Below, piece by piece: positions 1,119-43,411 of a stretch of DNA of 47,104 nt; position 1 is the stretch's first letter, and each line of letters starts with the position of its first letter. The DNA comes from Craspedostauros australis. Lineage: Eukaryota. The position numbers were made by a program, and so were the translations under genes. Under the pieces are notes generated by a model. It was not told where the DNA came from and did no database searches. It worked only from the letters and a program-made list of their open reading frames with translations. The stretch is taken from NCBI GenBank assembly GCA_030167865.1, contig JALAGF010003164.1, positions 1 to 47,104 on the forward strand, in the 5' to 3' direction.

Positions 1119-2492
1119 TCACTTGATGTTGCCTGTTGCTGGAACTTCCCGTTCTTCGTATTCCAGCAGGTTGGAACGCTTTCCTCCCGTGTTCAAGTAG
1201 GAAATGAGGAAGAAGAGCCCCCCATACGTCACCGCTCCTTTCAACATGCCTTGTGGTCCCTCTGTGGCGATTGTGTTACGATTGCATTCGGATTGCGCCG
1301 TCATGTTTCGTCGTCATTCGCGCATACATTCAATGCAATGCAATACAAGGAACGCGAAAGAATTGCAAATGTGAGCATGGACAACAACATACGCAACCGG
1401 AGTAATGTGGGAACGACGGCGAATGCAACGGTATGCACAAACAATAGTCAAAGGATCATCAAACGATAGTTCATCAACGACGAGAAGTTTTCTGTTGGCA
1501 GCCCAAACATCTGACTCCTCCAATCCAATGCAAATGCCGACACCTTCCACACACATACACAGACACAAACTCCCCCGCGCCGCTGGATGCAATGTGAATC
1601 CAACCGATGACTCACCCTTCCTGGCAAACCAGGCACCTGCGAGCGCGCTTGAGAAGATGGAGTTCCAGGCGTCGTTGTCCTGCTGTTGCGGACTGCGGAA
1701 CATGACGACGACGGCTTCCGATCCACCAAAGACGGCGCTGACGCTGCCCCAGCTCTTGGCCCATCGGAAGGACCTGCCGTTCATCCGCTTGAACCGGGAG
1801 GTGGATTCCTGGATGAAGCGGTTGGACATGGACGCTGCGGCTGTGGACGGCCCCGCCGTTGGATTGAAGATGAGCCCGGGCAAACCGACGATGGTGCCGA
1901 GCGTGTACGCCATGAGGAATCCCGTGGCGTATTCGAAAATAATGGTGAAGCCCACGTTCGCAACTCTGTACACAGTGCGACTGATGGGACCGAGATTGGA
2001 AAAGTCGACCTCCTCTTCGTCGGAATCGGGGTCGGTGGCAGCAGTCGGCACAGCCCTCTTTCGTTTGGCGACCTTGCCATCGCTCGCAGCAGGCTTCTTT
2101 GACTTGCGCGCCACCAGAAGGACTTCCGGCGCTGCGTTGCCGACGCCGTACCGCGACGAAGCAGCCGACGAAGTGAATCTTCTGCGTCCTCGCTGATGTC
2201 CTGTCTGTTGCCATCCTCGGGAAGATGACCCGCCGGAACCCCACTGCAGCTGCCGTTGCAACTCTTCCGATGCGCGCGTCCGTGTCAACCCGAGCACGGG
2301 GGCCGTCGTGGAGGACGCAAGCGACGCCGATCGGGCTTCGCACACCGGTATCGTCATGATGCCATGCGTGGAGAGCATCAGCAGGATGGCGAGCATGCCT
2401 CCCAACAATCCTCCCGGTCTTCTGTCTCTTGATGTCATGCGAGAGCCTGGTCTTTCGGATGATGCCTGCCGCATTCTTCCCATCATGGTCAT
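1119..2492 (-). CDS. Tim17/Tim22/Tim23 (PRAT) family translocase-like membrane protein; exons 2492-1616 and 1261-1119
   Basis: Motifs AKSWGSVSAVFGGSE and DAWNSIFSSALAGAWFARK. A GTGAGT donor at 1615 and a CAG acceptor at 1262 join in frame to EGPQGMLKGAVTYGG (877+143 nt = 340 codons). True start among several Met codons is uncertain. Confidence 0.85.
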
Positions 2493-2596
2493 CGTTGGTG
2501 CCTTCGTTGGTGCCTTCGTTGGTGCCTTCGTTGGTGCCTTCGTTGGTGCCTTCGTTGGTGCCTTCGTTGGTGCCTTCGTTAGGTACCTTCGTTAGG
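2492..2596. repeat. 12-nt minisatellite (TCGTTGGTGCCT) x7 plus 2 degenerate units
   Basis: Directly visible; abuts the first ATG of the Tim17-family gene. Confidence 0.95.
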
Positions 2597-5492: not shown

Positions 5493-8400
5493 TCAGTACC
5501 CCCAGCGTTGCAACTCTTTGGCTGCTTGGTGGTACCGTTCCAGCCGTTTGCCAGATGGCACGTCCAGGTACGTCGCGATCATGCGCGTCCACTCCAAGGA
5601 TGTTTCGAAGCCGTGGTTGAGCATTGGCAGTTGGCACGGTGACGACGTCGTGCTGCCTGTGTTCCCCTCGCTTCCGATCGCTCCGTGCTTGTGGACCCCG
5701 CAGAGGAATTGGCCGACGAAGACGTGGTCGAGCTGCAGGATGGATTGGATGTGACTGCTCAACCGGACGATGAACTCGATGCCTCTGCATTCGAGGTCCG
5801 TCATCACCATGGGCTTGGGATCTGGACGATGGCCCAGTGCCATGACGACCACGTCCATATCATTGCGCAAGTTGCCGGAGGCGAAACGAACCAGCTCGCC
5901 TCGGGATTCCACCATCTTCAGCATGAACTTCTTGTCGCTCGTTTGCTCTTCGCTGGCCATGTATTCAAAGTCCATCCAGTTGGGGGATTTGGCGAGAGCG
6001 GCCAGGAGATCGGGGTTGGTCTGGAATTCGGGGTTGAAATCGTCGTGCACCCATCCACCTCCTCGGCACATCCAGGCCTTCACGGCTTCCAGCGAGGACC
6101 ACCAGATGGTCGCATGGACCGAATCGAACAGATCCCACAGATCCGAAATGGGGCAGTTCTGGATGGCTTGGACGACGATGTCTGGATACATGGTCTGAAC
6201 CTCGATGGGCACGAGGTAGAGCTCGAAGGTGGGATGCCTGACTGCCTCCCGCACGATGCGGATGTCCTTCTGCAGCGCTTCGCTGCAAAATCCAAAGCAT
6301 TCCGGATCATGGCGGACGCCCTGGAGCATGATCTCCAGGTTGCCAGTGATGGATGGAGGCGAAAACTGTATCGTTTCTGGCATGATGTCCAGATCGTGGT
6401 GCTTCGCGAGATGCATCATCACATCCGGATTGGATAGCAGCGTTGGCAGAACATCGAAGGCGTCCAGCACTACCTCATCGTCCACTTCCTCTTGGCAGAC
6501 CGCCGTCGATGCTATTTCGTAGTTGGTTTGTAGACGGTGTGGCAGTTGCAGGTAGAGGCGGCAATTGTGCCGCAGTGCGCGCTTGCAGAATTGAATGTTG
6601 TCTTGCAGCTTCCTGGGTACTTCGTTCCACCGGAATCCGTGCTTGATGGCCTTGCAGAGAAGCTCGGTATCATGCAGGTACTTTGGCCGGGTGGGTGCCA
6701 CCCATCGCATCATCTGAGCTGGCGCTGATCGGAAGCAGTAGTTCCGCAACAGCGCATCATCCGCAAGGATCTCTGTCTTCGTTGGACCTGGCAGGCAGTA
6801 CTTGAAGGCGAAGCCGTTGTTTCGACATGCCTCGCGGACGATGTCGCGATTGCGACGCAATCGGTACGATGCGTGCAGCAGATTCAACCCGCAGCGCTTG
6901 ACGGCTGCAAGGACCACGCCTTGGTCATCCTTGAGTCGGTGCGAAGCATACTTCAGGACTGGCGTGAGGTGCTTCGATGGCATGGGTGCCAGACTGGTCG
7001 CTGCTTGTGGCGTTGCTGGTGTTGCCGATTCTGCTGGCGCCGCAGATCCATCTGTGACCGCGGATACGCTGATACTTGATTCTGTGTTCGATCCCTTGGT
7101 TGTGCTGTTACTTCCATCTGTACCTGTACCTGTATCTAAACATGTATCAATATGTGTGCTTGCATCCGCGCCTGTGGAACCTCCCTGCCGGAATGCTTCG
7201 ATGGGTTGATAGTTGCCAATGATGCTCAGGACGAAGGCTCGGTGATTGCGCAGCTGCTTGGAAACGAATTTCATCTCTCCCACGTACCCAGGCGTGCAGA
7301 GAACGTGATGCATGAAGGTGCGATTGCGCCGCATTCGATCGCTGAAGTTCTGGAGGAAGTGAGGGAAGAGAAGTTCCGGCGGCGGAAGTTTGCCTGGATT
7401 CGTTGGTGCGCTTTGGTTAGCCGCTCCTTCCGCATCAGTAGTATCATCGTCGGATGCGGCTTGCCGTTGTGGTCGCTGTTGCTGTTGCTGCTGCTTGATC
7501 TGCATGGAGCAGATGCTTTCGACTGTGGCCATAAGAATGTCCTCATCGTCTCTGAGGGGCGTGGACATTTGCTCAATGATGATCGGCTTCTTGCGGATGG
7601 CGGCCAGGATGACTTCCTTGTCGCCTCGCAGCTTTGGTGGAACGGTGAACCGCACATCCTCGTGCCGTTCTGCAAAGTCGGGGCGGTTGATGTAGGCCAG
7701 GATGACGTCGCGATCGTTGCGAAGCGCCTGGCAGACAGAACCGTTGGGGAAGTTGGTGTCGAAGGATGATGGAAGCTTGGGACTCTGCAACGCCGCCAGG
7801 ACAAAATCTTTCTCATCCCGCTCTTGGCGGCTGATGCGTTTCCAGATGCGCTTGGCGTCGACCGACAAACGCGTGAGCTTGACGTGCCTGATCTGATCTT
7901 TCTGCAGGTGCTTGAGATGCTCTCTCCAACACTGGATCTGCTGGAGGCATTGCAAGATCTGCTGGCATCGACTGGGTTGTTTGGTGGGCTTTTTGTGCTG
8001 GTGCTGGTTCGCATGAGCGTTGCTGCTGCTATTGGCATCACCGTTGGCGTTAGCGTTAGCATTGTCGGCGCCGTGATCGTCTTTGCCGTCGGTGATGATG
8101 TCGCTTGTGAGGAAATGAGTTTCCGGCGTGAAGAGGATCGGGGTGATGATGTCCATTCTTGACGATGCAGCCATCGCAGAACCAACGCTGGATGTATCAT
8201 CATCATCATCGTTCCACTCCTGCTCTCCGAAATTGGCTTCCCAATCGGCTTGGAAGAATGACCAGCTTCGGATGGTTTCATCATCTTCGTCGTCGTCATC
8301 ATCATCATCTTCTTCACTGCTGCTGCTGCTACTATCGTCGTAGATCCCGCTGATGCGATCGCCATAATCGTAGTCAGCGTGGACGTTGTAGACGGGAGTT

Positions 8401-9506
8401 CTGACAGTGTCGAAGGTGTCATCGGAGGTATATGAGATGCTGGAGGATGACGATGACGACGATGGTGAAGACGACGACGACGATGATGATGAAGATGACG
8501 CAGAAGAGGAAGAAGATGATGACGCCACCGACGATGAGGAAGAATCCGAGACGGAGTTGATCTCATCTATGATCTCATCCTCAAGAAATTCCTCTTCGAA
8601 CTCGGAATCCGAGAAACTGACAAAGACCCCCGTATTGCGGCTGTGGGCATCGGCCAGCATCCTGCTGATCTGATGCGCGTTGAGATGCGGGTTGTCATGG
8701 TGATCTTCGTGAATGCCGTGGACATCGACATCATCGTCGCTGCTGCCGTTGATGTTGATGTTGCTGCTGCTTCCGTGATGATGAGTATGGTCTGTGGCAG
8801 CGTAGTGATTGGCCTCATCATCGCTGACGGCGAAGGGACTTGGACGACCGTACCTGGACGATCTCTCGGCACGACCGTTGCGAGCACGGAAACGGCGAAG
8901 ATTGCCCAATCGAGAATGGGCAGACGAAGCACTCTCCTCGTCCAACAGTCTCTGCCAATCGTGGGAGGACGAAGATGTGATTCGGAAGACGTCATTGTCG
9001 CTCTGATCGTCGTCGTCGTCGTCATCATCATCATCGTCGTCGTCTTGGGAGAAAGCCGAGTGGATGGTGGTATCGAGGGTGGTATCCAGCGTGGTATCGA
9101 GTGTGGCATTGAGTGTCGAGTCAACAGCAGTGTTGACAGCAGTGTTGACATCGGTATCGGCAGTGTTGACATCGGTATCGGCAGTGCAATCCGCGGTGGT
9201 GGCGGTGTCATCCAACCGGAATCTCTCCACGAAGTCAGGACCCGACGCGGAGCTGTCGCTGTCGGCATCGTTCGTGTGGCTGCTTGTCGCGAGCCGCAGC
9301 GCGACCATGCCCTTGCCTTCTTGGCGGCGCGCCGCGAAGTTTTGGTTGGCCGCCTTGTGGTTGCTCATAGTTTCCGTCGTGCTCATTGGCGAAACGCGAT
9401 CGATGTCGATGCGTGCATGCATGCTTGTGTCGAGGGTGCCCGTGCGATCGCCATGGTCGTTCGCCTTTGGGGAGAGCCCCGCTTGGGGCTGATCTCTGGC
9501 GCTCAT
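5493..9506 (-). CDS. DUF4116 repeat-containing protein with long acidic/Ser-rich disordered N-terminus
   Basis: 1337-aa ORF with many LRxDxxVxLAA repeats (LRNDRDVILA, LRGDKEVILAA, LKDDQGVVLAAVKRCGLNLLHASYRLRRNRDIV, FASGNLRNDMDVV). Confidence 0.85.
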   Translation of the reverse strand: MSARDQPQAGLSPKANDHGDRTGTLDTSMHARIDIDRVSPMSTTETMSNHKAANQNFAARRQEGKGMVALRLATSSHTNDADSDSSASGPDFVERFRLDDTATTADCTADTDVNTADTDVNTAVNTAVDSTLNATLDTTLDTTLDTTIHSAFSQDDDDDDDDDDDDDQSDNDVFRITSSSSHDWQRLLDEESASSAHSRLGNLRRFRARNGRAERSSRYGRPSPFAVSDDEANHYAATDHTHHHGSSSNININGSSDDDVDVHGIHEDHHDNPHLNAHQISRMLADAHSRNTGVFVSFSDSEFEEEFLEDEIIDEINSVSDSSSSSVASSSSSSSASSSSSSSSSSSPSSSSSSSSISYTSDDTFDTVRTPVYNVHADYDYGDRISGIYDDSSSSSSEEDDDDDDDEDDETIRSWSFFQADWEANFGEQEWNDDDDDTSSVGSAMAASSRMDIITPILFTPETHFLTSDIITDGKDDHGADNANANANGDANSSSNAHANQHQHKKPTKQPSRCQQILQCLQQIQCWREHLKHLQKDQIRHVKLTRLSVDAKRIWKRISRQERDEKDFVLAALQSPKLPSSFDTNFPNGSVCQALRNDRDVILAYINRPDFAERHEDVRFTVPPKLRGDKEVILAAIRKKPIIIEQMSTPLRDDEDILMATVESICSMQIKQQQQQQRPQRQAASDDDTTDAEGAANQSAPTNPGKLPPPELLFPHFLQNFSDRMRRNRTFMHHVLCTPGYVGEMKFVSKQLRNHRAFVLSIIGNYQPIEAFRQGGSTGADASTHIDTCLDTGTGTDGSNSTTKGSNTESSISVSAVTDGSAAPAESATPATPQAATSLAPMPSKHLTPVLKYASHRLKDDQGVVLAAVKRCGLNLLHASYRLRRNRDIVREACRNNGFAFKYCLPGPTKTEILADDALLRNYCFRSAPAQMMRWVAPTRPKYLHDTELLCKAIKHGFRWNEVPRKLQDNIQFCKRALRHNCRLYLQLPHRLQTNYEIASTAVCQEEVDDEVVLDAFDVLPTLLSNPDVMMHLAKHHDLDIMPETIQFSPPSITGNLEIMLQGVRHDPECFGFCSEALQKDIRIVREAVRHPTFELYLVPIEVQTMYPDIVVQAIQNCPISDLWDLFDSVHATIWWSSLEAVKAWMCRGGGWVHDDFNPEFQTNPDLLAALAKSPNWMDFEYMASEEQTSDKKFMLKMVESRGELVRFASGNLRNDMDVVVMALGHRPDPKPMVMTDLECRGIEFIVRLSSHIQSILQLDHVFVGQFLCGVHKHGAIGSEGNTGSTTSSPCQLPMLNHGFETSLEWTRMIATYLDVPSGKRLERYHQAAKELQRWGY

Positions 9507-10628
9507 TGTCGTTTGCGTACGCTACGATTACTCGCACGAGTGTGCGTGTTTGAGACAGAGTATCTTGCTTGGTGTTGCCTGAATAGAGTCTTGTTTGTGT
9601 GCGGATATGCTAGAGTGGGAGCGTCCGAGGCGCTCAGTTGGTTGCTCAGCTGGTTGCTTGGAGTATAGAGTAATATTATACGTGTAGGTCACACGTGTAG
9701 GTCACACGAGCAGGTTGCAATAGAATAGTTTGGTCGGATGGCGGATTGTGAGGGCAAAAGTGGAGGCGAAGGCTGCTTCAAACTGTTGGTGGGAGAGAAT
9801 CCTCTGCTTGCCTTGGATCGGGGATGTTGCCCCACGGCGTTCCGTTGCGAGGGTCGCGTTGCACTTTGCCACCCTTGCGTTGATGAATGCCACAAGACCT
9901 TCAGAGTAGGTATTGGCAGGCAGAATACGTTGGTATAGCTCCTGATAGTAATCGGTTGTACTACTATGCGCTCGACTCTGCTCAACTCCCAAGCAAACCT
10001 TCGTTGGGATTTCGTTGCAACAACTCCAATCAACTGTCGTCAATGACCAACCGCAATCAGCACCCGCCAAAAAGAAGATGATGTGACAACGAGCAAGGGG
10101 AATGAGAAAACTTGCGCCGAAGATTTGGCGTCGTGCTCCACCCAACCTCGTTCAACGTTCAGCGCGCACCCATCCGCGCTGCTTTCCGCCTAACTATTTC
10201 ATGTGCCTCCATGCGTTGGACGAGCCATCCCATTGTGCACATGGTACGGGACTCCTTAACTGCGTCCAGTGATGTCTTCGTGTCGGTGTCACATAAGTGA
10301 TGTGGTCGACTGGATCAAATCGAGTCATTCGATTCATGTCACAACGAGAATCGTATCTTTGTTCGTGCTTTGCGTCTGAATCGTGGTGTTGTGTTGTGTC
10401 GTGTTGTGTTGTGTGGCCACGATCGTGGTCGTGTCTCTTCCTGTTGCGCTCTCCACACACCCACATCAACGTCCCATGTGCTGTGTGGATGTGGATACCT
10501 ACGCATGCTCCATGCCATGCCATGCCATGCCAATGTCCATGAACACACTCGCGCACTTGCACAAGCACGTCTGATACTCCTATACTTGTCTTCCACTCCA
10601 CGAATACTCGCAGCAGCACGATCGAAGG

Positions 10629-20245: not shown

Positions 20246-21804
20246 GGTGGAAGTGTTATATAATAGAATATTGTATTATGGAGTGTGTGTGTGAATTGGA
20301 CTCTGCAGAGCTTGGCTTGGTGGTGGCTGGTAGTGGGATGTTGGGTGGAGTACTATGTTGTGGTGCGGACTGTCTTTCGCTCCGCGCTGATCGTAATCGT
20401 TTGCGGGACGGAAAATGCAGAGAGGAATAACAGGAATGAGCGCTTTCGTTTTGAACGCTCTCGCATTTTATGATGAATCTGGACAGAGCAAATCACGACA
20501 ACAACAACCACGACGATGGTCTTCACGCGGTGCCTCTGAATTCGAGGCTGTGCCATTTCACGCCTTTCGTTGGTTGTTGGTCGTTCTTTGCCTTCGTTGT
20601 GGTGTCCATTTGCGACTTTCGCGCTCTTTACGCGACAAAGTAGGCACCCGCTTTGTGTTCGCGGGACTTTTGGTCTTGCGACCACTGCGACAGTGCAACA
20701 AATGACCAATCACAACCAACGAACACGACAACAACCCGCCAAAGAAGCCCACTTTCGGGTTTGTGGATTTTCTCGTTTGCTTCCAGTGCTGTGATGACGT
20801 CTCCATTCCTGACACGCCGACAGGCTTCTTTGTGAGTGTCACTATCTCCTTGGTGTTCGTTGAAACGCATGGGGACGTACAAGACAATGACATTGTTGAG
20901 GGTCGCGACCCTTCCTACGCAGAGCTACCAACACATATTGCGCACCTTGAATAATTGTTGAACCGTGTTCCGCGTGCTATGACTGTGGATCGACAAGAAG
21001 ACCAACCCCACTTAAGATGCTTCGGCGACAGAACTTCGCTGCACCTACGCCCTCTGGTCGTTAAACTAAGATTCGTGCCACACTCACCACCACTCAAAGA
21101 AAAGTATCAATGTTGCTACTTCGCGCTTCTTTGCGATACCGCTCGAGGCTCCAGTTGCAACACAATGGCTCTGTTTCGCCATCACGTCTGCTAGTGTTTC
21201 TGTCTGTCCGCATTTCGGCCCACGAATCTCTCCTCCATCCACAACGAAAGCGGAGCACAGGAGAAATAACCGAATAAATGAAGGCAACGAGGAATGCAGA
21301 AAACAATGATGGGAACGAAGGAACGAGAGAGGAAGAACAGTCCCACCTCTTCGTCGCCGCAGCCTTCACCAAGGCATCATGGTGTGAAATGGTGTGTCAC
21401 ACGACCATGGCCATGGCCATGAGCACGACTACAAACGGTGAGGATGTGATCATTGGCGCGAGCATGATTGTGTTGTTGGAGGCGTGGCGAGTTGGAGCAG
21501 AAACAATGAATGGCCGGTCTCTATGTCCGCCATCGCCATGGCCGTCCATTATCTCCTTCCCTCTCCAGGCGGCGTCAGTGCCAACATAGGCCATCAACGA
21601 CCTCCTTTCTTTCCCACTGGTTATCTGCATCCGTTGCCTTCTTCTGTTGGAGGCCTTGTGACGGACGTCATTCTGCTGTGTTGGATGACAATCGCCTTCG
21701 TTTCTGTCTTGTGTGCCTTCTCTCTCTGTGGAGGCGTTCCAACCAATCCTCATGGGAACTGACAACTGTTGCTGTTGGGTATATATATCTCACTTGTACC
21801 GAAC

Positions 21805-21890
21805 GTGTCAGGAGCGCTGGGACGCGTGAAGTACTGGATTTACTTTTGTCCTCCCCGGGAGGGTGCGGGTTCGATTCCCGCCCTGGCACG
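21805..21890 (+). ncRNA. tRNA-like RNA: non-canonical class II cloverleaf, 8-bp acceptor plus 5-bp T stem, GGA at anticodon position
   Basis: Acceptor GTGTCAGG/CCTGGCAC+G; T arm GCGGG-TTCGATT-CCCGC (perfect B box); variable arm CCTCC-CCG-GGAGG; anticodon-like arm GAAGTA-CTGGATT-TACTTT; D-like arm GCGC-TGGGAC-GCGT; TATATATAT about 25 nt upstream. Confidence 0.6.
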
Positions 21891-23051
21891 AACAAGTGAC
21901 GATTTGACAGGAACGATCAAGTGTCCACGTTCACCAGCCGCCGTGTCCGTCGGTCTTGCACCGATTCTTGGGGTCTTTGCTGTTGCGGATTGCTGCTTGT
22001 GTCTTGCTCTTGTGCGAATGCCATTCAAGACCCGCCTCTCAAGTGTGTCTCTTGGTCGTGACATCTTGTGATAGTCGGAGAGCGCATCACGCTGTTTGGA
22101 CTCTTGTTGCAGAGTGTCCATCGCAATCGTACTTGTGTGTTTGTGTGCATCGAACAACAGCCCATGGGATTGGGATCGCCGTGTCGTATCATCCGTCAAC
22201 GGCTCTCTGAATTGCCCTTCCATTTTCGCCGGAGTCGAAGGACCATCCCACAACGAGCTGCGAGCTGAGGGTAGAGTACATTGAGTATTTGGACATGACT
22301 CTTCCAACCATCTCCCATCCTTCTCCGCTCTGTACCGATGCAAAAGGACCGCAGACCGGAGCAACGCGAAGAGGATGGGAATGTAGGCGAGGTGAACAAC
22401 AATCCGAACCTGATCGCGAGCCCAAGCGAAGTTGCCGATGCTGCTGGTACCGTCTCCCTCTTTTCTCGTATTCTATGTATCTCTCTATCTTTCCTTGCTT
22501 TAGTCGTACATTGATTTGACACTGATTTGACATTGATGCTTCACCATTGACTGAGTCAAAGCGGCTTCCAAGTCTCCCACAATACCGCTTTGGGAAGCCG
22601 CTAATTCACAGAGGAGAAGCAGGTCAGAGCAGTTGCATCCGTGATGACCTGAACACCGATTGCTCCACAGGCCGTTGTTGCGAACGAACTAATCATCCCC
22701 GCGCATCGATCTCGATCGGTAGCTCGTTCATGTGCCATCACCTGATCGCGACCTGACCATCACCATCAACAACACCAACACCAACAAGACGCATCAACAT
22801 CCATGAAATGAGCGTGGCAGAAGTGCACACAGACATACATTCGTAGATACAGAGACATACAGACACATGCAAGTCAAACAACAAACAAACTGACAGACAC
22901 ATACACGAAGACATGCACACACGCACGCACGAATCGCAATGTTGTGCTCTGTTGGTACTTCTGCTCTATTTACATCATGCTCTACTTGCTCTATTCTACT
23001 CTATCATACTCGCACTCGCACCCGAAATCGCACTTACACGATGGTGACCAA

Positions 23052-25682
23052 TCACATCGTCAGAGACATGCCACCATCCAACACATCGGCCTGCTTCATC
23101 GGGCACTTGCGTCGGAACAGCGGAACATCCAAGCAGGGATGCTGGACCATCAGTTCGCACATCTCGTCGTCGAATGTGCTGTAGAATTCGTTCAGGTATT
23201 GCCGCGTCGTATCCAGCATGGCATCGTACGAGGCCTTGTTCATGGGATTCTTGTCGCGTCGTTTGCCAAAGGAGGCGGCTGCCGTTGTATTGGATTGCAG
23301 CGCGTACGTGTTCCGTGTCGCTTCCTCTGCGGCTGCCTTGTTGGGCATGCCCACAAAGTCATAGAGGCGTTCCACCTCAGTGCGCGGGTCGACGGAGACA
23401 TCGAAGAGATGGACCTGGGAGCATTGGAAGTGCGACAGCCACTCGGAGAAGACCTTGGAGTACATCGCTCGCGACAGCCAGCCGCCGGCCTGGACCATGT
23501 CGCTTGGCAGGCACTTGCGGTAGTTCGCGGCCGTGCATCCATTCTGCGTCCATGTGGCAATGACGCTGCGGATGTACGTGTCAAAGTGGGCCGGGCCCTT
23601 CTGGACGCCGTCGCTGTTGTTGTTGCTGCCTTGATTGCTTGCGCTGGCACTGTCTTGGGATGCGAAGACTCCGAAGTGGTTGTATGCCGAGTACGTGACG
23701 TCGACGGAATCGCGGACGGTGACAAGGAGATTTGCCTCCGGTTGCATGCGGCGGAAGACTTCCGGCAGCGACACACCACGGATCTTGTCAAAGCTGTGGT
23801 CCCAGATGTTCATCTCATCGAACAGCGGCTTCTCCTCCTCTGGGAAGTACGGAACCGCGGAGATGGCAGCATCTTCGTCGCTGCCACCGCCACCGACATC
23901 AGAACCACCAACTGTGGCAACAGCAACAGCAGGACCGGAACAGACACCGTTGGATACCTGACCGTTGAGCAAGGCGTAGTCATCGAAGCTGCATGTAGAC
24001 ACGACCCTCGTTTTTGGTTTGTGAAGGAAACTGGGTGTGTGCGGTGCGGCCGTCTTTGCCATCGCAGCGCACTTCTGTTCCTGCGTCTTGACGGTCTTCT
24101 CCGTCAGCCATCGCGTGGAATCCTCAATGTAGCCTGTGCTCGCCAGACCTGGATGTCCGCTCAAGTACCGCAGGATGGATTTGGTGCCGGCCTTGTGAAC
24201 ACCGACAACGTGGTACGATGGCAGGCAGCTGACGCTGCTGGATGGCGTGTCAAGCATGTCACCGTCGATGAAGCTTCCAGCAGCATGGTTGCACCAGCAG
24301 TGTCCGGTGCGCGATGCCTTGCCCTTGGCTGGGAGAGGGAAGGAGAATCGTTCCTGAACGGGCGGGATCTCACTCGCGAGGCCCTCCTCTTCGAGAAGGT
24401 CGAGCATCAAGGAGTACTTCTTTCCCGACGCGAAATGGGCGATGAAGTCACCATGCTGCCATTGTCCGTTCTCCTTCTTGTCCGCGCTGCTGAAGGTTTG
24501 CTCGCGTCGGAAGGAGTTCATGGTGCGCTTGGCAACGACGGTGACATGGGCGCCACGTTCCAGCTCCGTCTTTGGCGGCCACTGCAGCTCGTTCTGAGCA
24601 AGCAGCACGGACATCTGAAGCGGCTGGTCGATGAGGGTTCGGCCGAGGAAGCGGGTGTAGGCGTAGTTGGCGGTGAATATGTCGAAGCAATGCTGCAGCG
24701 ACCATTCGTTGCTCTTGAGGAGGAAGATTCCGTTGTTGATGCCGTGCACGTGCTTCCAGTTTCCACCACGTGTCACGATCAAGCTGGTGGTGTTGGATGG
24801 CTGGGTGGTGTGGATGAGGGAGGGCAAGGTGATGTCCATGTTGGTGAAGAGGGCGTCGGCATCCAGCATCATGACCCACTTGTAACCGCGTTGCACGGTC
24901 CATGCCAGGAGGAGGTACTTGAGCATCTTGGGGTGGATGCCATCGACGTTGGTGGACATTGGCAGGTAGTCGTAGCCGTGGGTGTTGGCGTAGTGCTGGT
25001 GGTTGCGCTTGGAGATGTCGCACAGATCCATTGCGACGCAGATGCTCACGATGGCGTACTCCGGCGAATCTCTGCCATGCAGGTTGTTCTGCCGTTGAAG
25101 CTGGGACGATCGTGCTTGGAGGGAGCGGCCGATCTCGGAATCGTCGAAGATGGTGCTTGCGAGCTTGAGGAATTCCGCGAGCGTGTCCGGTATGTACTCA
25201 CCCTGGAAGCCGGTTGGCAAGGGAACGACGGCCATAGGCTGGGCGATTTCGGTCTTCGTGCTGTAGGTCTTGCGCACGGTCTCGAAGGATCGAGCGGAGA
25301 TGGGAGTGCCGCCGAAGATGAGATCGCTCTGAGGAACAAGCGAGATGCCTGCGTCTGCTTTGCCAAGGTTCGCAGCATCATCCGGCCTGCGCTGTTGATC
25401 AATCTGAAGGGCATCGGCATCAGCCGCAGTCTCGTTGCTGATGGCGCCATCTTGGCAGCAGCTGGCCTGAATGTTGAGCGCCCTCGCACTGAGCGTGGGA
25501 TGCTGATTCAGAACGTGGTCGCTGGTGCCGATCGCGTTGATTCCTCGGAGGTCGTACTGTCCTGGCAGTGGGATCTTGCAGAGGATGGAGTTGGTGCGCA
25601 CAAGGTAAAGGATGCTGGCCACAGTTAACGATGCAAACATCAGTGGTCGGAAACCTCCGCTTTTCCTCGTCATATTGCTCAT
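23052..25682 (-). CDS. Type II membrane GT34 (GMA12/MNN10-like) glycosyltransferase fused to a PAPS-dependent sulfotransferase
   Basis: N-terminal hydrophobic anchor. GT34 motifs: NHQHYANTHGYDY, WVMMLDADA (DxD), INNGIFLLKSNEWS, WQHGDFIAHFA. Sulfotransferase motifs: 5'-PSB CLPSYHVVGVHKAGTKS and 3'-PB VTVRDSVDVTYSAYNHF. Single 876-aa ORF. Confidence 0.85.
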   Translation of the reverse strand: MSNMTRKSGGFRPLMFASLTVASILYLVRTNSILCKIPLPGQYDLRGINAIGTSDHVLNQHPTLSARALNIQASCCQDGAISNETAADADALQIDQQRRPDDAANLGKADAGISLVPQSDLIFGGTPISARSFETVRKTYSTKTEIAQPMAVVPLPTGFQGEYIPDTLAEFLKLASTIFDDSEIGRSLQARSSQLQRQNNLHGRDSPEYAIVSICVAMDLCDISKRNHQHYANTHGYDYLPMSTNVDGIHPKMLKYLLLAWTVQRGYKWVMMLDADALFTNMDITLPSLIHTTQPSNTTSLIVTRGGNWKHVHGINNGIFLLKSNEWSLQHCFDIFTANYAYTRFLGRTLIDQPLQMSVLLAQNELQWPPKTELERGAHVTVVAKRTMNSFRREQTFSSADKKENGQWQHGDFIAHFASGKKYSLMLDLLEEEGLASEIPPVQERFSFPLPAKGKASRTGHCWCNHAAGSFIDGDMLDTPSSSVSCLPSYHVVGVHKAGTKSILRYLSGHPGLASTGYIEDSTRWLTEKTVKTQEQKCAAMAKTAAPHTPSFLHKPKTRVVSTCSFDDYALLNGQVSNGVCSGPAVAVATVGGSDVGGGGSDEDAAISAVPYFPEEEKPLFDEMNIWDHSFDKIRGVSLPEVFRRMQPEANLLVTVRDSVDVTYSAYNHFGVFASQDSASASNQGSNNNSDGVQKGPAHFDTYIRSVIATWTQNGCTAANYRKCLPSDMVQAGGWLSRAMYSKVFSEWLSHFQCSQVHLFDVSVDPRTEVERLYDFVGMPNKAAAEEATRNTYALQSNTTAAASFGKRRDKNPMNKASYDAMLDTTRQYLNEFYSTFDDEMCELMVQHPCLDVPLFRRKCPMKQADVLDGGMSLTM

Positions 25683-25699
25683 GTGTGTGGATGCTTTGT

Positions 25700-25771
25700 G
25701 TGGTGCTCAGCGTGGTGCTCAGCGTGGTGCTCAGCGTGGTGCTCAGCGTGATGCTCAGTGTGGTGCTCACT
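25700..25771. repeat. 12-nt minisatellite (GTGGTGCTCAGC) x6, last two degenerate
   Basis: Directly visible, about 18 nt upstream of the GT34-sulfotransferase ATG. Confidence 0.9.
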
Positions 25772-31332: not shown

Positions 31333-32532
31333 CTACTTGCCAAATTGCTTGGCCACGAATTGGCGGAAGGCTTGATCGTCACGCGTCGATCGACGACGAT
31401 ATCCACCGCGACCCCCGCCCCGACCTCCATTGTGCGGCCTCGATCCCGACCTCGAGTTGGATGCATCGCCACCGGCCTTGCCATCCGCACCGTCCTTCTT
31501 GGACGCCATCATGGCCTCGAATCCGACGCGGTCATCATCGACGTTGTCATTCTGCTTGGCGGCCTCCTCCTCCGCGCGTTCGTTCAGCACGCGCTCGCGT
31601 TCGGCGCGGAAGTCCGCTGTGGCACTGCGCGATCCCGTCGTCATGCCGCGGCTCTGCGCGATGCCGCTGGACGTGGCGTTGAACTTGGTGGGCAGCAGCG
31701 ACCCGGTGTTCATGTTGAGCGGCTTGCTCATATCAGATGACAGCGACGGAATGGCAGAAGACGAATTCTCCGACTTTCCGAAGCGATGGCGTCGCAGACG
31801 CAGCGTGTCGCTGCCACCCTCGCGCCGTTGTGGCTTGCCGCCCCTGTGGCGATTGTGGGCGCGTCCGCCGGGACCCTGGCCCATGGTTGGCGGGAGCTCC
31901 ACTTCGGCGATGCCCGTGTTGCCGCCCACCAGCACGGATGAGGAGCCTTGGTCAGGATCCAGCGTGGAGTTGAGCGCCGACGAGTCATCGGCTGACGTCG
32001 CCTGGACCTGATCCGCCAGCTCCTGATACAGCCTGCTCTCCTCGTCCTTGATGCTGGCACCCGTGGTCTTCTGAGCAGCCGCGCTGGCATCGGCTTTGGA
32101 GGCAGCATTGGCGCCTCCCATCTGGTCGTCGATGTACTCCTGCATCGCCTCCTGGTGCTTCTTGCCCAAGGCCGACAGCTCGGGGCCGTCCTTGCCCGTC
32201 GACAGTCCCGACCGCTGCTGGTCGTTGGCACTGCCGCCCTTTCCACCATTGTCATCGTCGCCATCGCCATCCTTGCCGCGCGTGGCCCTTCTGCCAGAAC
32301 CGCGCCCGACTCCATCCGCCGTGGTCGACGCCAAAGGAATGCTCGACAGCAGCTTCTGCTTCTTCTTCGTCCTCTGGATGGCCTGCAGCACGCTGCCGCC
32401 TGCCGATGCGGAAGTCGGCTCCCCCTGATCCCCCGCGACTGTCACGGTTGCGCCGTTCTCCTCCTCGTCATCGTCGTCGGTCCTGCGCTTTCGCACGGCC
32501 GCTTTCTTCACATTCTTCCTCTTCTTGAACAT
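31333..32532 (-). CDS. C9orf78/Tls1-like spliceosome-associated protein (HCA59 family)
   Basis: Basic NLS-like N-terminus (FKKRKN..RKRR), AMQEYIDDQM, RLYQEL, TGIAEVELP and C-terminal STRDDQAFRQF, matching the order of family blocks MxxYIE, GIPEVDL and ATDD..F. Confidence 0.75.
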   Translation of the reverse strand: MFKKRKNVKKAAVRKRRTDDDDEEENGATVTVAGDQGEPTSASAGGSVLQAIQRTKKKQKLLSSIPLASTTADGVGRGSGRRATRGKDGDGDDDNGGKGGSANDQQRSGLSTGKDGPELSALGKKHQEAMQEYIDDQMGGANAASKADASAAAQKTTGASIKDEESRLYQELADQVQATSADDSSALNSTLDPDQGSSSVLVGGNTGIAEVELPPTMGQGPGGRAHNRHRGGKPQRREGGSDTLRLRRHRFGKSENSSSAIPSLSSDMSKPLNMNTGSLLPTKFNATSSGIAQSRGMTTGSRSATADFRAERERVLNERAEEEAAKQNDNVDDDRVGFEAMMASKKDGADGKAGGDASNSRSGSRPHNGGRGGGRGGYRRRSTRDDQAFRQFVAKQFGK

Positions 32533-34845
32533 CTTGCTGTTGTTTCTGCTGCTGCTGCTGCTGTTGTTATCGCTGCGGTATAGTATGCTGTGTCAAGATC
32601 GTCCAAGTGCAAGAGCATCGGTGCCGGGGACACCGCTGAGGTTGTTGGAGGCAACAAGAAAGAAAAAGTGTGAGCATGGATGATGTTGATGGGGTTTGCT
32701 TTCTCTTTGGTTGGTTCGGCAACTGCGTCTTGCAGGCGTCCGTAGTCCAATACCGAGAAAATCCAAGGTACATCCAAAGTCTCGAACAACAACACGATCG
32801 ATACGAATTGAGATGAGAGCTCCCGCTCGTGTTCATGTTACAGACCTCGCATATCCCGCTTGGCTTCAATGTGTACATCATATATTATACACGTCCTTCG
32901 TACGGGTTTTCCAAACGCTTCGCGGTTTTTCTTGTGGTGGGAATCCAACAGCCAAAATCTTCGAGCGCCCACAAGGCTTCTCTTGTGGACGTTCGGAGGA
33001 GCCAAAATCATCTTCACGCAAGGAACGAGCCCGTGAGCAGAAAGCGATGACACAAACAGCTCCCGTTCGAGCCACCTCCATGGAGACTTGCACCACATCG
33101 AGTGCAATGGCAGAGTCGGGAGGATTGTACCTCGTCTCCATTCTCTGGAGAGGCAGAGAGCGCTCCTCCTACGCTCCCAGTTCCTCTATCGCCGTTATTG
33201 AAAGGGTACCGTCTCGGTGAGGCGCATCAATTGGGAGACGGCTCGGTGATGGGCCCTCAACTCCCTTTCTCTCTCTTCCGTTCTTTGGTGGGACCGGCGG
33301 GGTGGCGGCGCACGAGTGCTTGCTTGCAAGCAAGAGTGGAACGGCGGCGCTATCTCTGAAGTTTGCCGGCGAAGCCTTATCCTTCGTTCCGTCACAACAT
33401 CATGGAGCGGCCACCGGCCTCTTGTGCCCTTGCGCGTTTACTGCAACTGCACCATACGATAATAGTGGTAGCACACCATTGTTCGTGCACATGTGATCGG
33501 AGGCTTGTTTCATGTGTTTCTCGCAACTGAATGGAGGGTCTCACGTCTCCCAAGATTGCGTGTGTGCAAATGCATACCACGGCTCATAGAGCACACCGCA
33601 AGGTGACTCCCTGATTCCGTTCCTTCGGTGAGGGCCATTGAACATCCTCGGGCAGTATTGCCTTCTCCGTCTTCATCACTGTTCTCTACTCCGTCCTAAT
33701 GTTCCCTTCTTCATCTCGTTGCGCTTCTCTTCTCTGCACGCCGTGGTAATGGCACGATCCACTCGTGTTGCCATCTCGCCCTTGTTGGCATGGCGGCATG
33801 TCGATCCGACGGCATGGGCCAACAGTTGACACTCAACGATGCAAGGACTCAAACGAACATCACTGGATCCAACCTGTTCCAATGCCAAACCTGCACCAAC
33901 CGCATTGTAAAACCCAACATGTGCGCGTTGACATTGAGGAAGGAACGTCCGAGACCACATGCGCGACGTTGATTGCGCACACATCTGGTGGGAAGACATG
34001 AGTGTAGTGCTCTATGGCAGAGTACAAGTGCACCAATCCACGAAGGGGGCTTTCGGCGCAGATGTCATACCCACAAACCATGCAGATCATGCAGATCGCA
34101 CGCAGGGATCGCAAAGACTGATGGAGATGCCTTGGGAAGTCTCCTTCGTGGGATTTGACAATAATCAGGAAGCCAGGCGGAAGTGGACGAAAGGAACAGC
34201 CAAGGGCGGGAACACAACCGCGAGATTGAACACAGTCCGTGCTCCCTTGCATGGGTGGGCAAAGACAAAGTCATCAACACTGCCCTCACACAACACGCCT
34301 CACATTTAGCAGCTCGTACCACACCGACGACCCAATGCAACGCATCACATTGTAAGCTCAACCCAACGCAATCCAACCCAACCCAACGCAGCTCGGGTGG
34401 AGCAAACAACGACGGCGAAAAGGACAAAAACCGCACTCCATCTTGTATCACACCCAATACGAGGACTCCCAAGAGGACTTCCTTGTGCATTTCCAAGAGA
34501 TTGTGACAACCTCATCAGTCGCCCTTCCGGAAAGAACAATCAAATTCATTTGAAGTGGCGAGGAGCGTGTTCGGGTGCCCCTGGGTCGTTCACATCCCAT
34601 AACTGCGCACTTGTTACACCACGGGCTGCAAGCACAGTGGCGGCGGAGCAACCTTGTGGCCGCGCCCATCTCATCAACTCCAACCACACTCAACTGCCTT
34701 CAACCACCTTCAACCCAGTGACGGCGAAGCTCACAAGACAAAAGCAACAACTCCGAAGTCGCCACCACACATACTTGTGCCGCTCTACCAACAACCTATA
34801 ATACAAGCATCATAGTTCAGCAATTGCATCTGCGACAACACCAGG

Positions 34846-42301: not shown

Positions 42302-43411
42302 ATGAGCAAGGTTGCAACATCCGCCCGCCGATTCATGTCCACAGCGGCCAAGGTCGACTGGTGAGTCGCCGTCCTCTTCATGCCGCGATGCAGCTGGCTT
42401 TGGATCCAGCCTCGTTGCGCATCCATCGATGCTTTCGTCATGGTTCCTCCAGCGGCATTGCGGAAGCATCCTTGCTTTGAGACTCTTTCAGTTCCGCATC
42501 CTCTCGAGGCTGCTCTGCTGTCGTCGCAGATGTTGCGGGTGTCTCCATCACATCGTATCAACATCCAGGGCAGTATCCAGGGCAACAGGCCAAGTGCAGC
42601 ATCATCTTGGAGAACAACAACAACGCTCCCACAACCATGATGTTCACAAGGCTGCAATGCAATTGGGAGGAGGCATCTCTGGTTGTGGACGACGTGCCGA
42701 TCATTTTCCATCGTCCCTTTTCTTTCTCTCCACCACCATCACCTCTCTGGTTGCTCCGCCAGTTCCTCACAAACAACAGAATCTCGTCATCTCACAATTT
42801 CATCACTCCACCACTCTTTTCGCGGTTTGTTCGTATTGCTCATGTTACAATACACATCATGTCCAATCAAACATGATGCAACCAATTCAACCCAACCTCC
42901 ATTCATAATGGTGTCACTCACTCTCTCTCTGTCTGTGTTCATACATGCGCGCAGGTCCGCCGATGTGTGGAAGGCAGCACCAATTGTGGCCAACGTGAAC
43001 AAATTCCGTTCCTGGGTTGCCACCGCCGACGCGCAGGCTGAGAAGTACCAGACCGCACCAACGCCAATCGACTTCGACGGCGCCAAGTCCAAGATCCGCG
43101 ACACCGAGCTCGTCGACAAGATCCAGGCATTCTACTCCTCCGCCGCCCTTCCGGCCGAAGGACACGAGTGGGACGCTGAAGACAAGGCCAGCAAGGAGGC
43201 GCACTTCGAGCAGGTCAAGGAACAGGCTGCCCTCTACCAGGACCTCAAGGACGATATCCACAAGGAGATCGAGTTCCTCAAGTCCACCCGAACCACCGAG
43301 GACACCACCATCCACGACCTCATGTGCAACAACCCAACCATCCACGAGGAGATCGAGAACGAGATCGAGAACCGCGAATGGTTCAAGGACATTGGTTTGA
43401 ACGCCAAGTAA
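42302..43411 (+). CDS. ATP5PD: Mitochondrial ATP synthase subunit d; exons 42302-42360 and 42955-43411
   Basis: Presequence MSKVATSARRFMST..KVDW; GTGAGT donor at 42361 and CAG acceptor at 42954 give 516 nt in frame (171 aa); motifs PIDF, LVDKIQAFY, NPTIHEEIENEIENREW. Confidence 0.9.

What the first reader, a model, noticed from the sequence alone, without database searches (positions are those of the whole stretch)
21780..21899. Non-canonical tRNA-like RNA: 8/5 acceptor-T stack, long variable arm, G discriminator, GGA loop
Seen: an 86-nt cloverleaf (21805-21890) with 8-bp acceptor, only 1 nt before a 4-bp D-like stem, 6-bp anticodon-like stem with loop CTGGATT, 5-6-bp variable stem, canonical T arm, no good A box, and a TATA at about -25. 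Established: a 13-bp acceptor/T stack, 6-bp anticodon stem, long variable arm, G73 and an upstream TATA are tRNA-Sec-like or SerRS-substrate traits. However, the triplet is GGA rather than UCA, position 37 is not a purine, and eukaryotes normally lack tRNA-Ser(GGA). Inference: an undescribed tRNA-like ncRNA (allo-tRNA-like, a processing module, or a SINE head). The intact stems argue against simple pseudogene decay.
Basis: partly seen in the sequence, partly recalled or inferred. Interest (0 to 1): 0.75.

Follow-up and report, generated by a model that had tools for sequence, protein, structure and literature searches.

The report
Diatom solo LTR with tRNA-like cloverleaf
The odd tRNA is not a cellular RNA gene but the middle of a 150-base end repeat left by a small, recently moved jumping gene in a diatom, a kind of element described in 2024 in other organisms, here with an unusually complete fold that resembles the selenocysteine tRNA.

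Summary
The cloverleaf is real, but it is the core of a 150-bp mobile unit (21760-21909) with TG...CA ends and a 5-bp target duplication. The assembly holds 6 copies, 94.7-100% alike; 6 of 6 have their own perfect 5-bp duplication, and one interrupts an AAA-ATPase frame whose empty allele is also assembled. That is a solo LTR. No two-LTR copy is assembled, but depth arithmetic on one run's contigs implies an LTR end joined through about 91 unseen letters to an LTR start, i.e. a ~390-bp TRIM. Closest known: Helenus/TRIMp3 (Kojima 2024), not found reported for diatoms in my paper searches; this scan has noted Helenus-like TRIMs in other diatom genomes. Differences: no A box, a TATA run, a complete 8/5 tRNA-Sec-like fold, and an internal TTTTG like this host's Pol III terminators. 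Descent from tRNA-Sec is suggestive only (about even odds). Best reading: a promoter module in a Copia-mobilised TRIM; an RNA-level role (processing, self-priming) is not excluded. PBS, PPT, polymerase and partner element were not seen.

The parts
21755..21759 (+). Left target-site duplication GGAAC
   Evidence: Sequence; each of 6 of 6 copies has its own 5-bp duplication
21760..21909 (+). 150-bp solo LTR, TG...CA ends (TGACAA / TTGACA, 5 of 6 inverted match)
   Evidence: Homology among 6 genomic copies stops at these ends
21780..21788 (+). TATA run, 25 to 17 bases before the cloverleaf; candidate promoter element
   Evidence: Sequence; function inferred
21790..21797 (+). 5' arm of an 8-bp outer stem enclosing the cloverleaf
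   Evidence: Fold; invariant in all copies
21805..21890 (+). 86-nt tRNA-like cloverleaf, 8/5 fold, long variable arm, G discriminator, no A box
21836..21838 (+). GGA at the anticodon position, followed by U at the position normally a purine; probably not a decoding anticodon
   Evidence: sequence; inference
21843..21848 (+). Internal CTTTTG, the form of this host's tRNA-gene terminators
   Evidence: 45 of 47 downstream T runs are followed by G, 0 of 7 internal runs are
21868..21878 (+). B box / T loop GGTTCGATTCC
   Evidence: Sequence; invariant in 6 of 6 copies
21892..21899 (+). 3' arm of the outer stem
   Evidence: Fold
21910..21914 (+). Right target-site duplication GGAAC
   Evidence: Sequence

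Best explanation
It is the LTR of a small non-autonomous LTR retrotransposon (TRIM) that carries a tRNA-like sequence in its repeats, a Helenus/TRIMp3-type element of a pennate diatom. Shown: a 150-bp TG...CA unit has inserted recently at 6 unrelated sites, each with a 5-bp duplication. Inferred: the full element is LTR - about 91 bases - LTR (about 390 bp); RNA starts inside the first LTR and ends inside the second; reverse transcriptase and integrase come in trans from one of the host's many Copia elements; the assembled copies are solo LTRs left by LTR-LTR recombination, or two-LTR copies collapsed by the assembler. The cloverleaf most likely acts at the DNA level as a promoter module (TATA + B box without A box, the layout of tRNA-Sec/U6-type genes) and does not decode codons. 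Which polymerase reads it is open: the internal TTTTG argues that plain Pol III read-through would be cut short, so a TATA-driven Pol II start is about as likely. Odds: LTR of an LTR retroelement 0.9; TRIM with a short interior 0.75; promoter-module role of the cloverleaf about 0.55; descent from tRNA-Sec about 0.5.
For: 6 matches in G000, 94.7-100% identical, all 149-150 bp with the same ends; three independent patterns (3' end, 5' end, T arm) return the same 6 places (the 7th hit is unrelated). 6 of 6 perfect, different 5-bp duplications. Empty allele of the C3821 site in C3646: one GTTTC and an uninterrupted frame that scores as AAA_16, 62.1 bits. In run X1 (8 contigs laid) the loose-end consensus is explained in 30 of 30 columns by the flanks of C5188, C3934 and C4513, and a fourth contig bridges the LTR into the window's own flank; the piece that the table did not show fits best as 30 letters (21881-21910) at the depth of record 1, whose letters 121-213 are the LTR start: LTR end, 91 letters, LTR start. 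That LTR start has a 2-base deletion found in none of the 6 assembled copies. At least 152 Copia RT matches in the genome. Helenus: LTR 120 bp + interior 85 bp in Selaginella, 5-bp duplications with Copia partners, families with solo LTRs only (PMC10886601).
Against: No two-LTR copy in the assembly (0 of 6), so PBS and PPT were never seen. The 91-letter junction is deduced from rounded depths, not read; a tandem or circular form would fit too, and X1 is only guessed to be RNA. No autonomous partner: 0 of 32 Copia-bearing loci share more than 12 letters with the LTR (32 loci from at least 152 hits). No A box, unlike most Helenus LTRs and 50 of 51 host nuclear tRNA loci. The internal TTTTG speaks against the Pol III promoter model. 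No homologue outside this genome, so conservation could not be tested.
Confidence: 0.75

Rival explanations
1. Same TRIM, but the cloverleaf works as RNA: a Pol II transcript carries a tRNA-Sec-like fold that RNase P / RNase Z / the CCA enzyme recognise, to set the RNA ends, to yield a self-encoded primer, or to help packaging; the outer stem, which can form only in the copy transcribed with its U3, would protect one copy.
For: Whole cloverleaf paired, 150 of 151 cells; one both-sided change G-C to U-G in the acceptor stem of the C4513 copy; A box lost and a terminator-like TTTTG inside; the host's tRNA-Sec gene also lacks an A box and has no T4 run until 114 bases downstream, and trypanosome tRNA-Sec is a Pol II transcript (PMC2943599, abstract). 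Self-priming was suggested by unchecked notes on other diatom TRIMs.
Against: Covariation is not above shuffles (139 of 500); the C4513 copy has a broken T-stem pair and loses the cloverleaf in its centroid fold; no site complementary to the element's or tRNA-Sec's CCA end follows an LTR end in 18 of 18 genome hits or in 32 Copia loci; Kojima found no such complementarity in Helenus. Cleavage of both copies would destroy the genomic RNA.
Confidence: 0.2
2. Solo LTR of a full-length autonomous Copia whose body is missing or unlinked in this fragmented assembly.
For: 5-bp duplication and TG...CA fit Copia; at least 152 RT hits, many on short contigs; only 32 loci were compared.
Against: No LTR end or start lies beside other element sequence anywhere in the assembly; the inferred junction gives an interior of about 91 letters; Copia LTRs seen here are longer (379 and at least 499 bases).
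Confidence: 0.1
3. A stand-alone 150-bp unit (MITE-like DNA element, or one-LTR unit) that moves as such and was never half of a two-LTR element.
For: 6 of 6 assembled copies are single although 3 are identical.
Against: Terminal inverted repeat is only 5 of 6 bases; young solo LTRs are common in TRIM families (PMC13570524, passages); the inferred junction.
Confidence: 0.08
4. A functional cellular tRNA-like gene or SINE.
For: ARAGORN call and Sec-like geometry.
Against: Fixed TG...CA ends with 5-bp duplications, 45-base leader, no tail; insertion into a coding frame with an empty allele; a genuine tRNA-Sec (76.6 bits) and Ser AGA/CGA/TGA/GCT genes exist elsewhere; no terminator after the cloverleaf.
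Confidence: 0.03

Closest known systems
Helenus / TRIMp3 (Kojima 2024, Biology 13:119, PMC10886601; parts 1-4 of 6 of the text read, passages of the tables, supplement searched by terms only)
   Same: tRNA-like sequence inside a short TG...CA LTR; B-box GGTTC kept; 5-bp duplications as in fungal and plant Helenus; families known mainly as solo LTRs; inferred size (150+91+150) close to Helenus-1_SMo (120+85+120); gives false tRNA calls.
   Different: Host is a diatom (0 occurrences of diatom or stramenopile in the text, 0 of diatom in the supplement); no TRGCY A box; TATA run upstream; complete 8/5 cloverleaf with long variable arm, Sec-like; internal terminator-like TTTTG; PBS and PPT not seen. 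Sequence homology to Helenus families was not tested.
Cassandra TRIM (as described in PMC10886601)
   Same: Small-RNA-derived module in the LTR of a non-autonomous element; transcription thought to start inside it.
   Different: Cassandra carries 5S rRNA sequence and has shown Pol III transcription; here tRNA-like and untested.
Eukaryotic tRNA-Sec (Rfam RF01852; PMC5330540, passages)
   Same: 13-bp acceptor+T stack, 6-bp anticodon stem, long variable arm, G discriminator, no A box; shares GTGT start and GCACG end with the host gene.
   Different: 8/5 rather than 9/4; D stem 3-4 bp rather than 6; GGA rather than UCA; 27.4 bits against a cut-off of 47 and 76.6 for the host gene.
allo-tRNA (PMC5389517, start of abstract only)
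   Same: Non-canonical acceptor/T geometry and long variable arm.
   Different: allo-tRNAs have 12 bp as 8/4 or 9/3 and were found in bacteria and phages; this has 13 bp as 8/5 and sits in a eukaryotic LTR.
CoDi Ty1/copia elements of diatoms (PMC2806351, passages)
   Same: TG/CA ends and short target duplications; likely source of RT and integrase.
   Different: No coding part and no sequence shared with 32 Copia loci of this genome.

Membership tests
Solo LTR of an LTR retroelement | TG...CA termini shared by dispersed copies | tested here: met
   6 of 6 copies
Solo LTR of an LTR retroelement | 4-6-bp target duplication of fixed length; empty site has one copy | tested here: met
   6 of 6 with 5 bp; empty allele for 1 of 2 sites searched (none for the window site)
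Helenus / TRIMp3 | tRNA-derived sequence inside the LTR | tested here: met
Helenus / TRIMp3 | Two LTRs around a short non-coding interior, under about 1 kb | tested here: inconclusive
   0 of 6 assembled copies; a 91-letter interior is inferred from the depth table of one run, letters unseen
Helenus / TRIMp3 | PBS and PPT in the interior | not testable with these tools
   Interior absent from the assembly; the one read-laying run does not print it
Helenus / TRIMp3 | B box conserved (GGTTC) | tested here: met
   Invariant in 6 of 6 copies
Helenus / TRIMp3 | A box conserved (TRGCY ... YGG; typical of most, not all, families) | tested here: not met
   No TRGCY or TRGYNNAR
Helenus / TRIMp3 | Pol III transcription from the LTR | not testable with these tools
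   Indirect hint against: internal TTTTG
Helenus / TRIMp3 | Sequence kinship with described families | not tested
   Supplement searched by terms only; Repbase not available; the paper itself argues for multiple origins
tRNA-Sec | UCA anticodon | tested here: not met
   GGA
tRNA-Sec | 13-bp acceptor+T stack and G73 | tested here: met
   8+5 and G; eukaryotic form is 9/4
tRNA-Sec | 6-bp D stem with 4-nt loop | tested here: not met
   4 bp and 6 nt
tRNA-Sec (descent from) | Sequence closer to host tRNA-Sec than to other host tRNAs | tested here: inconclusive
   Top raw score of 63 tRNAs for both variants; 9 and 2 of 2000 shuffles; but ranked by own-shuffle z it is 4th of 71 for the window copy (Arg-TCT first) and 1st of 71 for the C4513 copy; only 20 nuclear isotypes held
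allo-tRNA | 12-bp branch as 8/4 or 9/3 | tested here: not met
   8/5 (definition from the listing)
tRNA-derived SINE | tRNA head at the 5' end, A-rich or simple-repeat tail, variable-length duplication (recalled definition; head/tail also in PMC10886601) | tested here: not met

The most novel reading that the evidence does not exclude
A diatom TRIM has captured a tRNA-Sec-type fold not as a Pol III promoter but as an RNA device: a TATA-driven Pol II transcript from which the host's tRNA-processing enzymes cut and CCA-tail the cloverleaf, giving the element its own RNA ends or its own reverse-transcription primer, in a host whose own tRNA-Sec gene (no A box, no adjacent T-run) may likewise be cut from a Pol II transcript.
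Probability: 0.12. Interest if true: 0.75.

Novelty: new variant of a known kind. Interest (0 to 1): 0.4.

Why it matters
It explains a false tRNA-Ser(GGA) call and extends small-RNA-bearing TRIMs to diatoms, where four paper searches found no report; Repbase and most subscription journals were not searched, and this scan has already noted such elements in other diatom genomes. The family is young and mutagenic: one copy breaks an AAA-ATPase frame against an intact allele. The variant is useful because it lacks the A box, has a TATA run and carries an internal terminator-like run, so it is a direct test of the untested assumption that Helenus tRNA parts are Pol III promoters; if the fold acts as RNA instead, it would be a new way for a retroelement to use tRNA processing.

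Tried and rejected
No RNA holder listed as such for the stretch; X1 is a guess at RNA and X2, X3 gave 0 laid contigs. In X1 no contig covers the window's upstream flank and the LTR's 5' part is covered by one record only; this would fit a start inside the LTR but contigs cannot show starts, so it is not used as evidence. Homologues elsewhere: 0 hits for a variable-arm/T-arm pattern in metagenomes; 21 metagenome and 2 viral hits for a B-box + outer-stem pattern, 0 of 23 related, most being ordinary tRNA or tmRNA-like 3' ends; no look-alike in earlier scan notes. No empty allele for the window site. Diverged sister families in G000: none by DNA or pattern searches; a covariance model was built but no search was made with it, so diverged families remain open. 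Autonomous partner: 0 of 32 Copia loci; Gypsy elements were not searched. PBS complementary to the CCA end of the element or of tRNA-Sec: 18 hits against 6 for the control pattern looked promising, but 0 of 18 follow an LTR end and several lie in coding sequence; none in 167,834 Copia-bearing bases. Covariation across 4 distinct copies not above shuffles. Descent from tRNA-Sec weakened by the fairer test. Rows dropped before the 51-locus counts: loci under 40% GC and L041 (organelle-like); 4 of 51 had no T run, among them one beside a gap and one at a contig end; mis-parsed the tRNA-Sec 3' end, corrected. The ORFs overlapping the site were not pursued; 21843-22472(-) has no Pfam match.

Full report
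Observation. The 86-nt cloverleaf is at 21805-21890 as described. ARAGORN calls it tRNA-Ser(gga), it is the MFE and centroid fold (z -1.87, 11 of 200 shuffles as good), and Rfam's best clan match is tRNA-Sec at 27.4 bits, under the cut-off of 47. Window proteins place the host among pennate diatoms (Pfam scan). The genome has a genuine tRNA-Sec (76.6 bits, C6529) and Ser genes with AGA, CGA, TGA and GCT, so nothing requires this RNA for decoding.

What it is part of. A DNA search of the own genome gave 6 matches. Homology runs over exactly 21760-21909, 94.7-100% identical. All 6 begin with TG and end with CA, and 6 of 6 are flanked by a perfect, different 5-bp duplication (GGAAC, GAAAC, TTGAT, CTATC, ATCAG, ATTGG in element orientation). 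Patterns for the 3' end, 5' end and T arm return the same 6 places; the one extra hit is unrelated. For the C3821 copy the empty site is assembled in C3646, with a single target 5-mer and an open frame that scores as an AAA_16 ATPase; the occupied copy splits that frame into 217 and at least 500 codons. No empty allele was found for the window site. Fixed TG...CA ends with fixed 5-bp duplications are the marks of a solo LTR (established knowledge; also PMC10886601 and PMC2806351). Three copies are identical; the most diverged differs at 8 places, 4 of them CpG transitions, so the family is young.

Is there a two-LTR element? Not in the assembly. Run X1, guessed to be RNA, gave 8 contigs on the stretch. 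One bridges the LTR into the window's downstream flank; the consensus of three loose ends is explained in 30 of 30 columns by the flanks of C5188, C3934 and C4513, with the same agreement (0.62) that the tool reports, so X1 carries the same insertions. Record 1 (213 letters) has the LTR start at letters 121-213, with a 2-base deletion in the TA run that none of the 6 assembled copies has, and its first 120 letters were not counted as loose. The depth table is reproduced by the 8 listed pieces except in two bins; the best fit for the unshown piece is 30 letters at 21881-21910 with record 1's depth (largest error 0.07; next fits 0.13-0.19 use records that have no spare letters or are already counted as loose). 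Inference: LTR end, 91 letters, LTR start, i.e. an element of about 150+91+150 bases. The letters were not seen; a tandem or circular form would look alike. The six assembled singles may be true solo LTRs or collapsed full copies (inference from the fragmented assembly, 6734 contigs).

How it moves. The genome holds at least 152 Copia reverse-transcriptase matches. None of 32 Copia-bearing loci compared shares more than 12 letters with the LTR, so the partner is unidentified; Kojima notes that LTR homology is not needed for mobilisation in trans. A Copia partner is inferred from the 5-bp duplication; Gypsy was not searched.

What the cloverleaf does. Best reading: a promoter module. B box and TATA run are present; the A box is absent, whereas 50 of 51 nuclear tRNA loci held have one, the exception being tRNA-Sec. 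Against a plain Pol III model: 45 of 47 T runs behind host tRNA genes are followed by G, 0 of 7 runs inside host tRNAs are, and the element has CTTTTG inside its cloverleaf. A TATA-driven Pol II start is therefore about as likely; neither is shown. The rival, an RNA-level role, rests on the complete fold (150 of 151 cells paired, one both-sided change in the acceptor stem, but 139 of 500 shuffles reach this), the outer stem, and the host tRNA-Sec gene's lack of A box and nearby terminator, which recalls Pol II transcription of trypanosome tRNA-Sec (PMC2943599, abstract). The C4513 copy has a broken T-stem pair and folds less well. Self-priming, a lead from unchecked notes of this scan, found no support: no primer site for the element's or tRNA-Sec's CCA end follows an LTR in the assembly, but the element's own interior could not be read.

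Donor tRNA. Geometry is Sec-like (13-bp stack, 6-bp anticodon stem, long variable arm, G73; features from PMC5330540, passages) but 8/5, with a short D stem and GGA. Host tRNA-Sec has the top raw score among 63 host tRNAs for both variants tested (9 and 2 of 2000 shuffles). Ranked against each tRNA's own shuffles it is 4th of 71 for the window copy and 1st of 71 for the C4513 copy, and only 20 nuclear isotypes were held. About even odds.

Comparison. Kojima 2024 defines Helenus as TRIMs with tRNA-derived sequence in their LTRs, in fungi, animals and Selaginella (parts 1-4 of 6 read). This element works like one and meets the LTR, duplication, tRNA and B-box features; the two-LTR structure is only inferred, PBS and PPT are unseen, and the typical A box is missing. 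Diatoms are not named in that paper or its supplement (supplement searched by terms, not read whole, and its figures may bear on the donor question). Searches for Helenus/TRIM in diatoms and for tRNA-Sec-derived mobile elements showed no such report in the listings; Repbase was not available. Solo LTRs are common in young TRIM families (PMC13570524, passages). PMC13578239 (passages) added nothing on diatom tRNA-Sec transcription. allo-tRNAs are 12-bp 8/4 or 9/3 (PMC5389517, start of abstract), not met. No homologue was found in metagenome or viral contigs.

Verdict. A real feature, explained as the tRNA-like core of a young diatom solo LTR of Helenus/TRIMp3 type; a new variant rather than a new kind. 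Interest 0.4. The bold reading (Sec-type fold used as an RNA device in a Pol II transcript) has about 0.12 probability and would merit 0.75.

Noticed in passing
L013 (G000:C6529:105908-105993, minus strand): The host's tRNA-Sec gene has no A box, no TATA-like box by my scan and no run of four T until 114 bases downstream, unlike the other nuclear tRNA genes; it may be transcribed or processed differently (Pol II as in trypanosomes is a possibility).
   Followed up: partly
51 nuclear tRNA loci of G000: Terminators are short: the first downstream run is T4 in 28 of 51 loci and is followed by G in 45 of 47; T4 inside tRNAs (7 cases) is never followed by G.
   Followed up: partly
L110:658-807 (C3821) and L124 (C3646): A copy of the element interrupts an AAA_16 ATPase reading frame; the intact allele or paralogue is assembled separately.
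   Followed up: yes
L114:4036-4185 (C1444) and L111:456-605 (C5188): These copies also sit in long open frames (202 + 257 and 127 + 64 codons on the two sides), possibly coding exons.
   Followed up: no
L090:1468-8461 (G000:C5725): A full Copia element with LTRs 99.2% alike over 379 bases that appear to end in GA rather than CA, a 5-bp duplication, and a primer site of the half-tRNA-iMet type (motif recalled) directly behind the LTR.
   Followed up: partly
window 23052-25706 (-): 884-codon frame with a glycosyltransferase 34 domain and a sulfotransferase domain, the nearest long gene-like frame to the insertion.
   Followed up: no
window 5493-9521 (-), 1314-2591 (-), 42641-43411 (+), 31333-32592 (-): DUF4116 repeat protein, Tim17-family protein, mitochondrial ATP synthase d, weak Hep_59 match.
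   Followed up: no
G000:C5790, C2472, C1217, C5055: Low-GC contigs dense in tRNA genes, probably plastid and mitochondrial DNA within the assembly.
   Followed up: no
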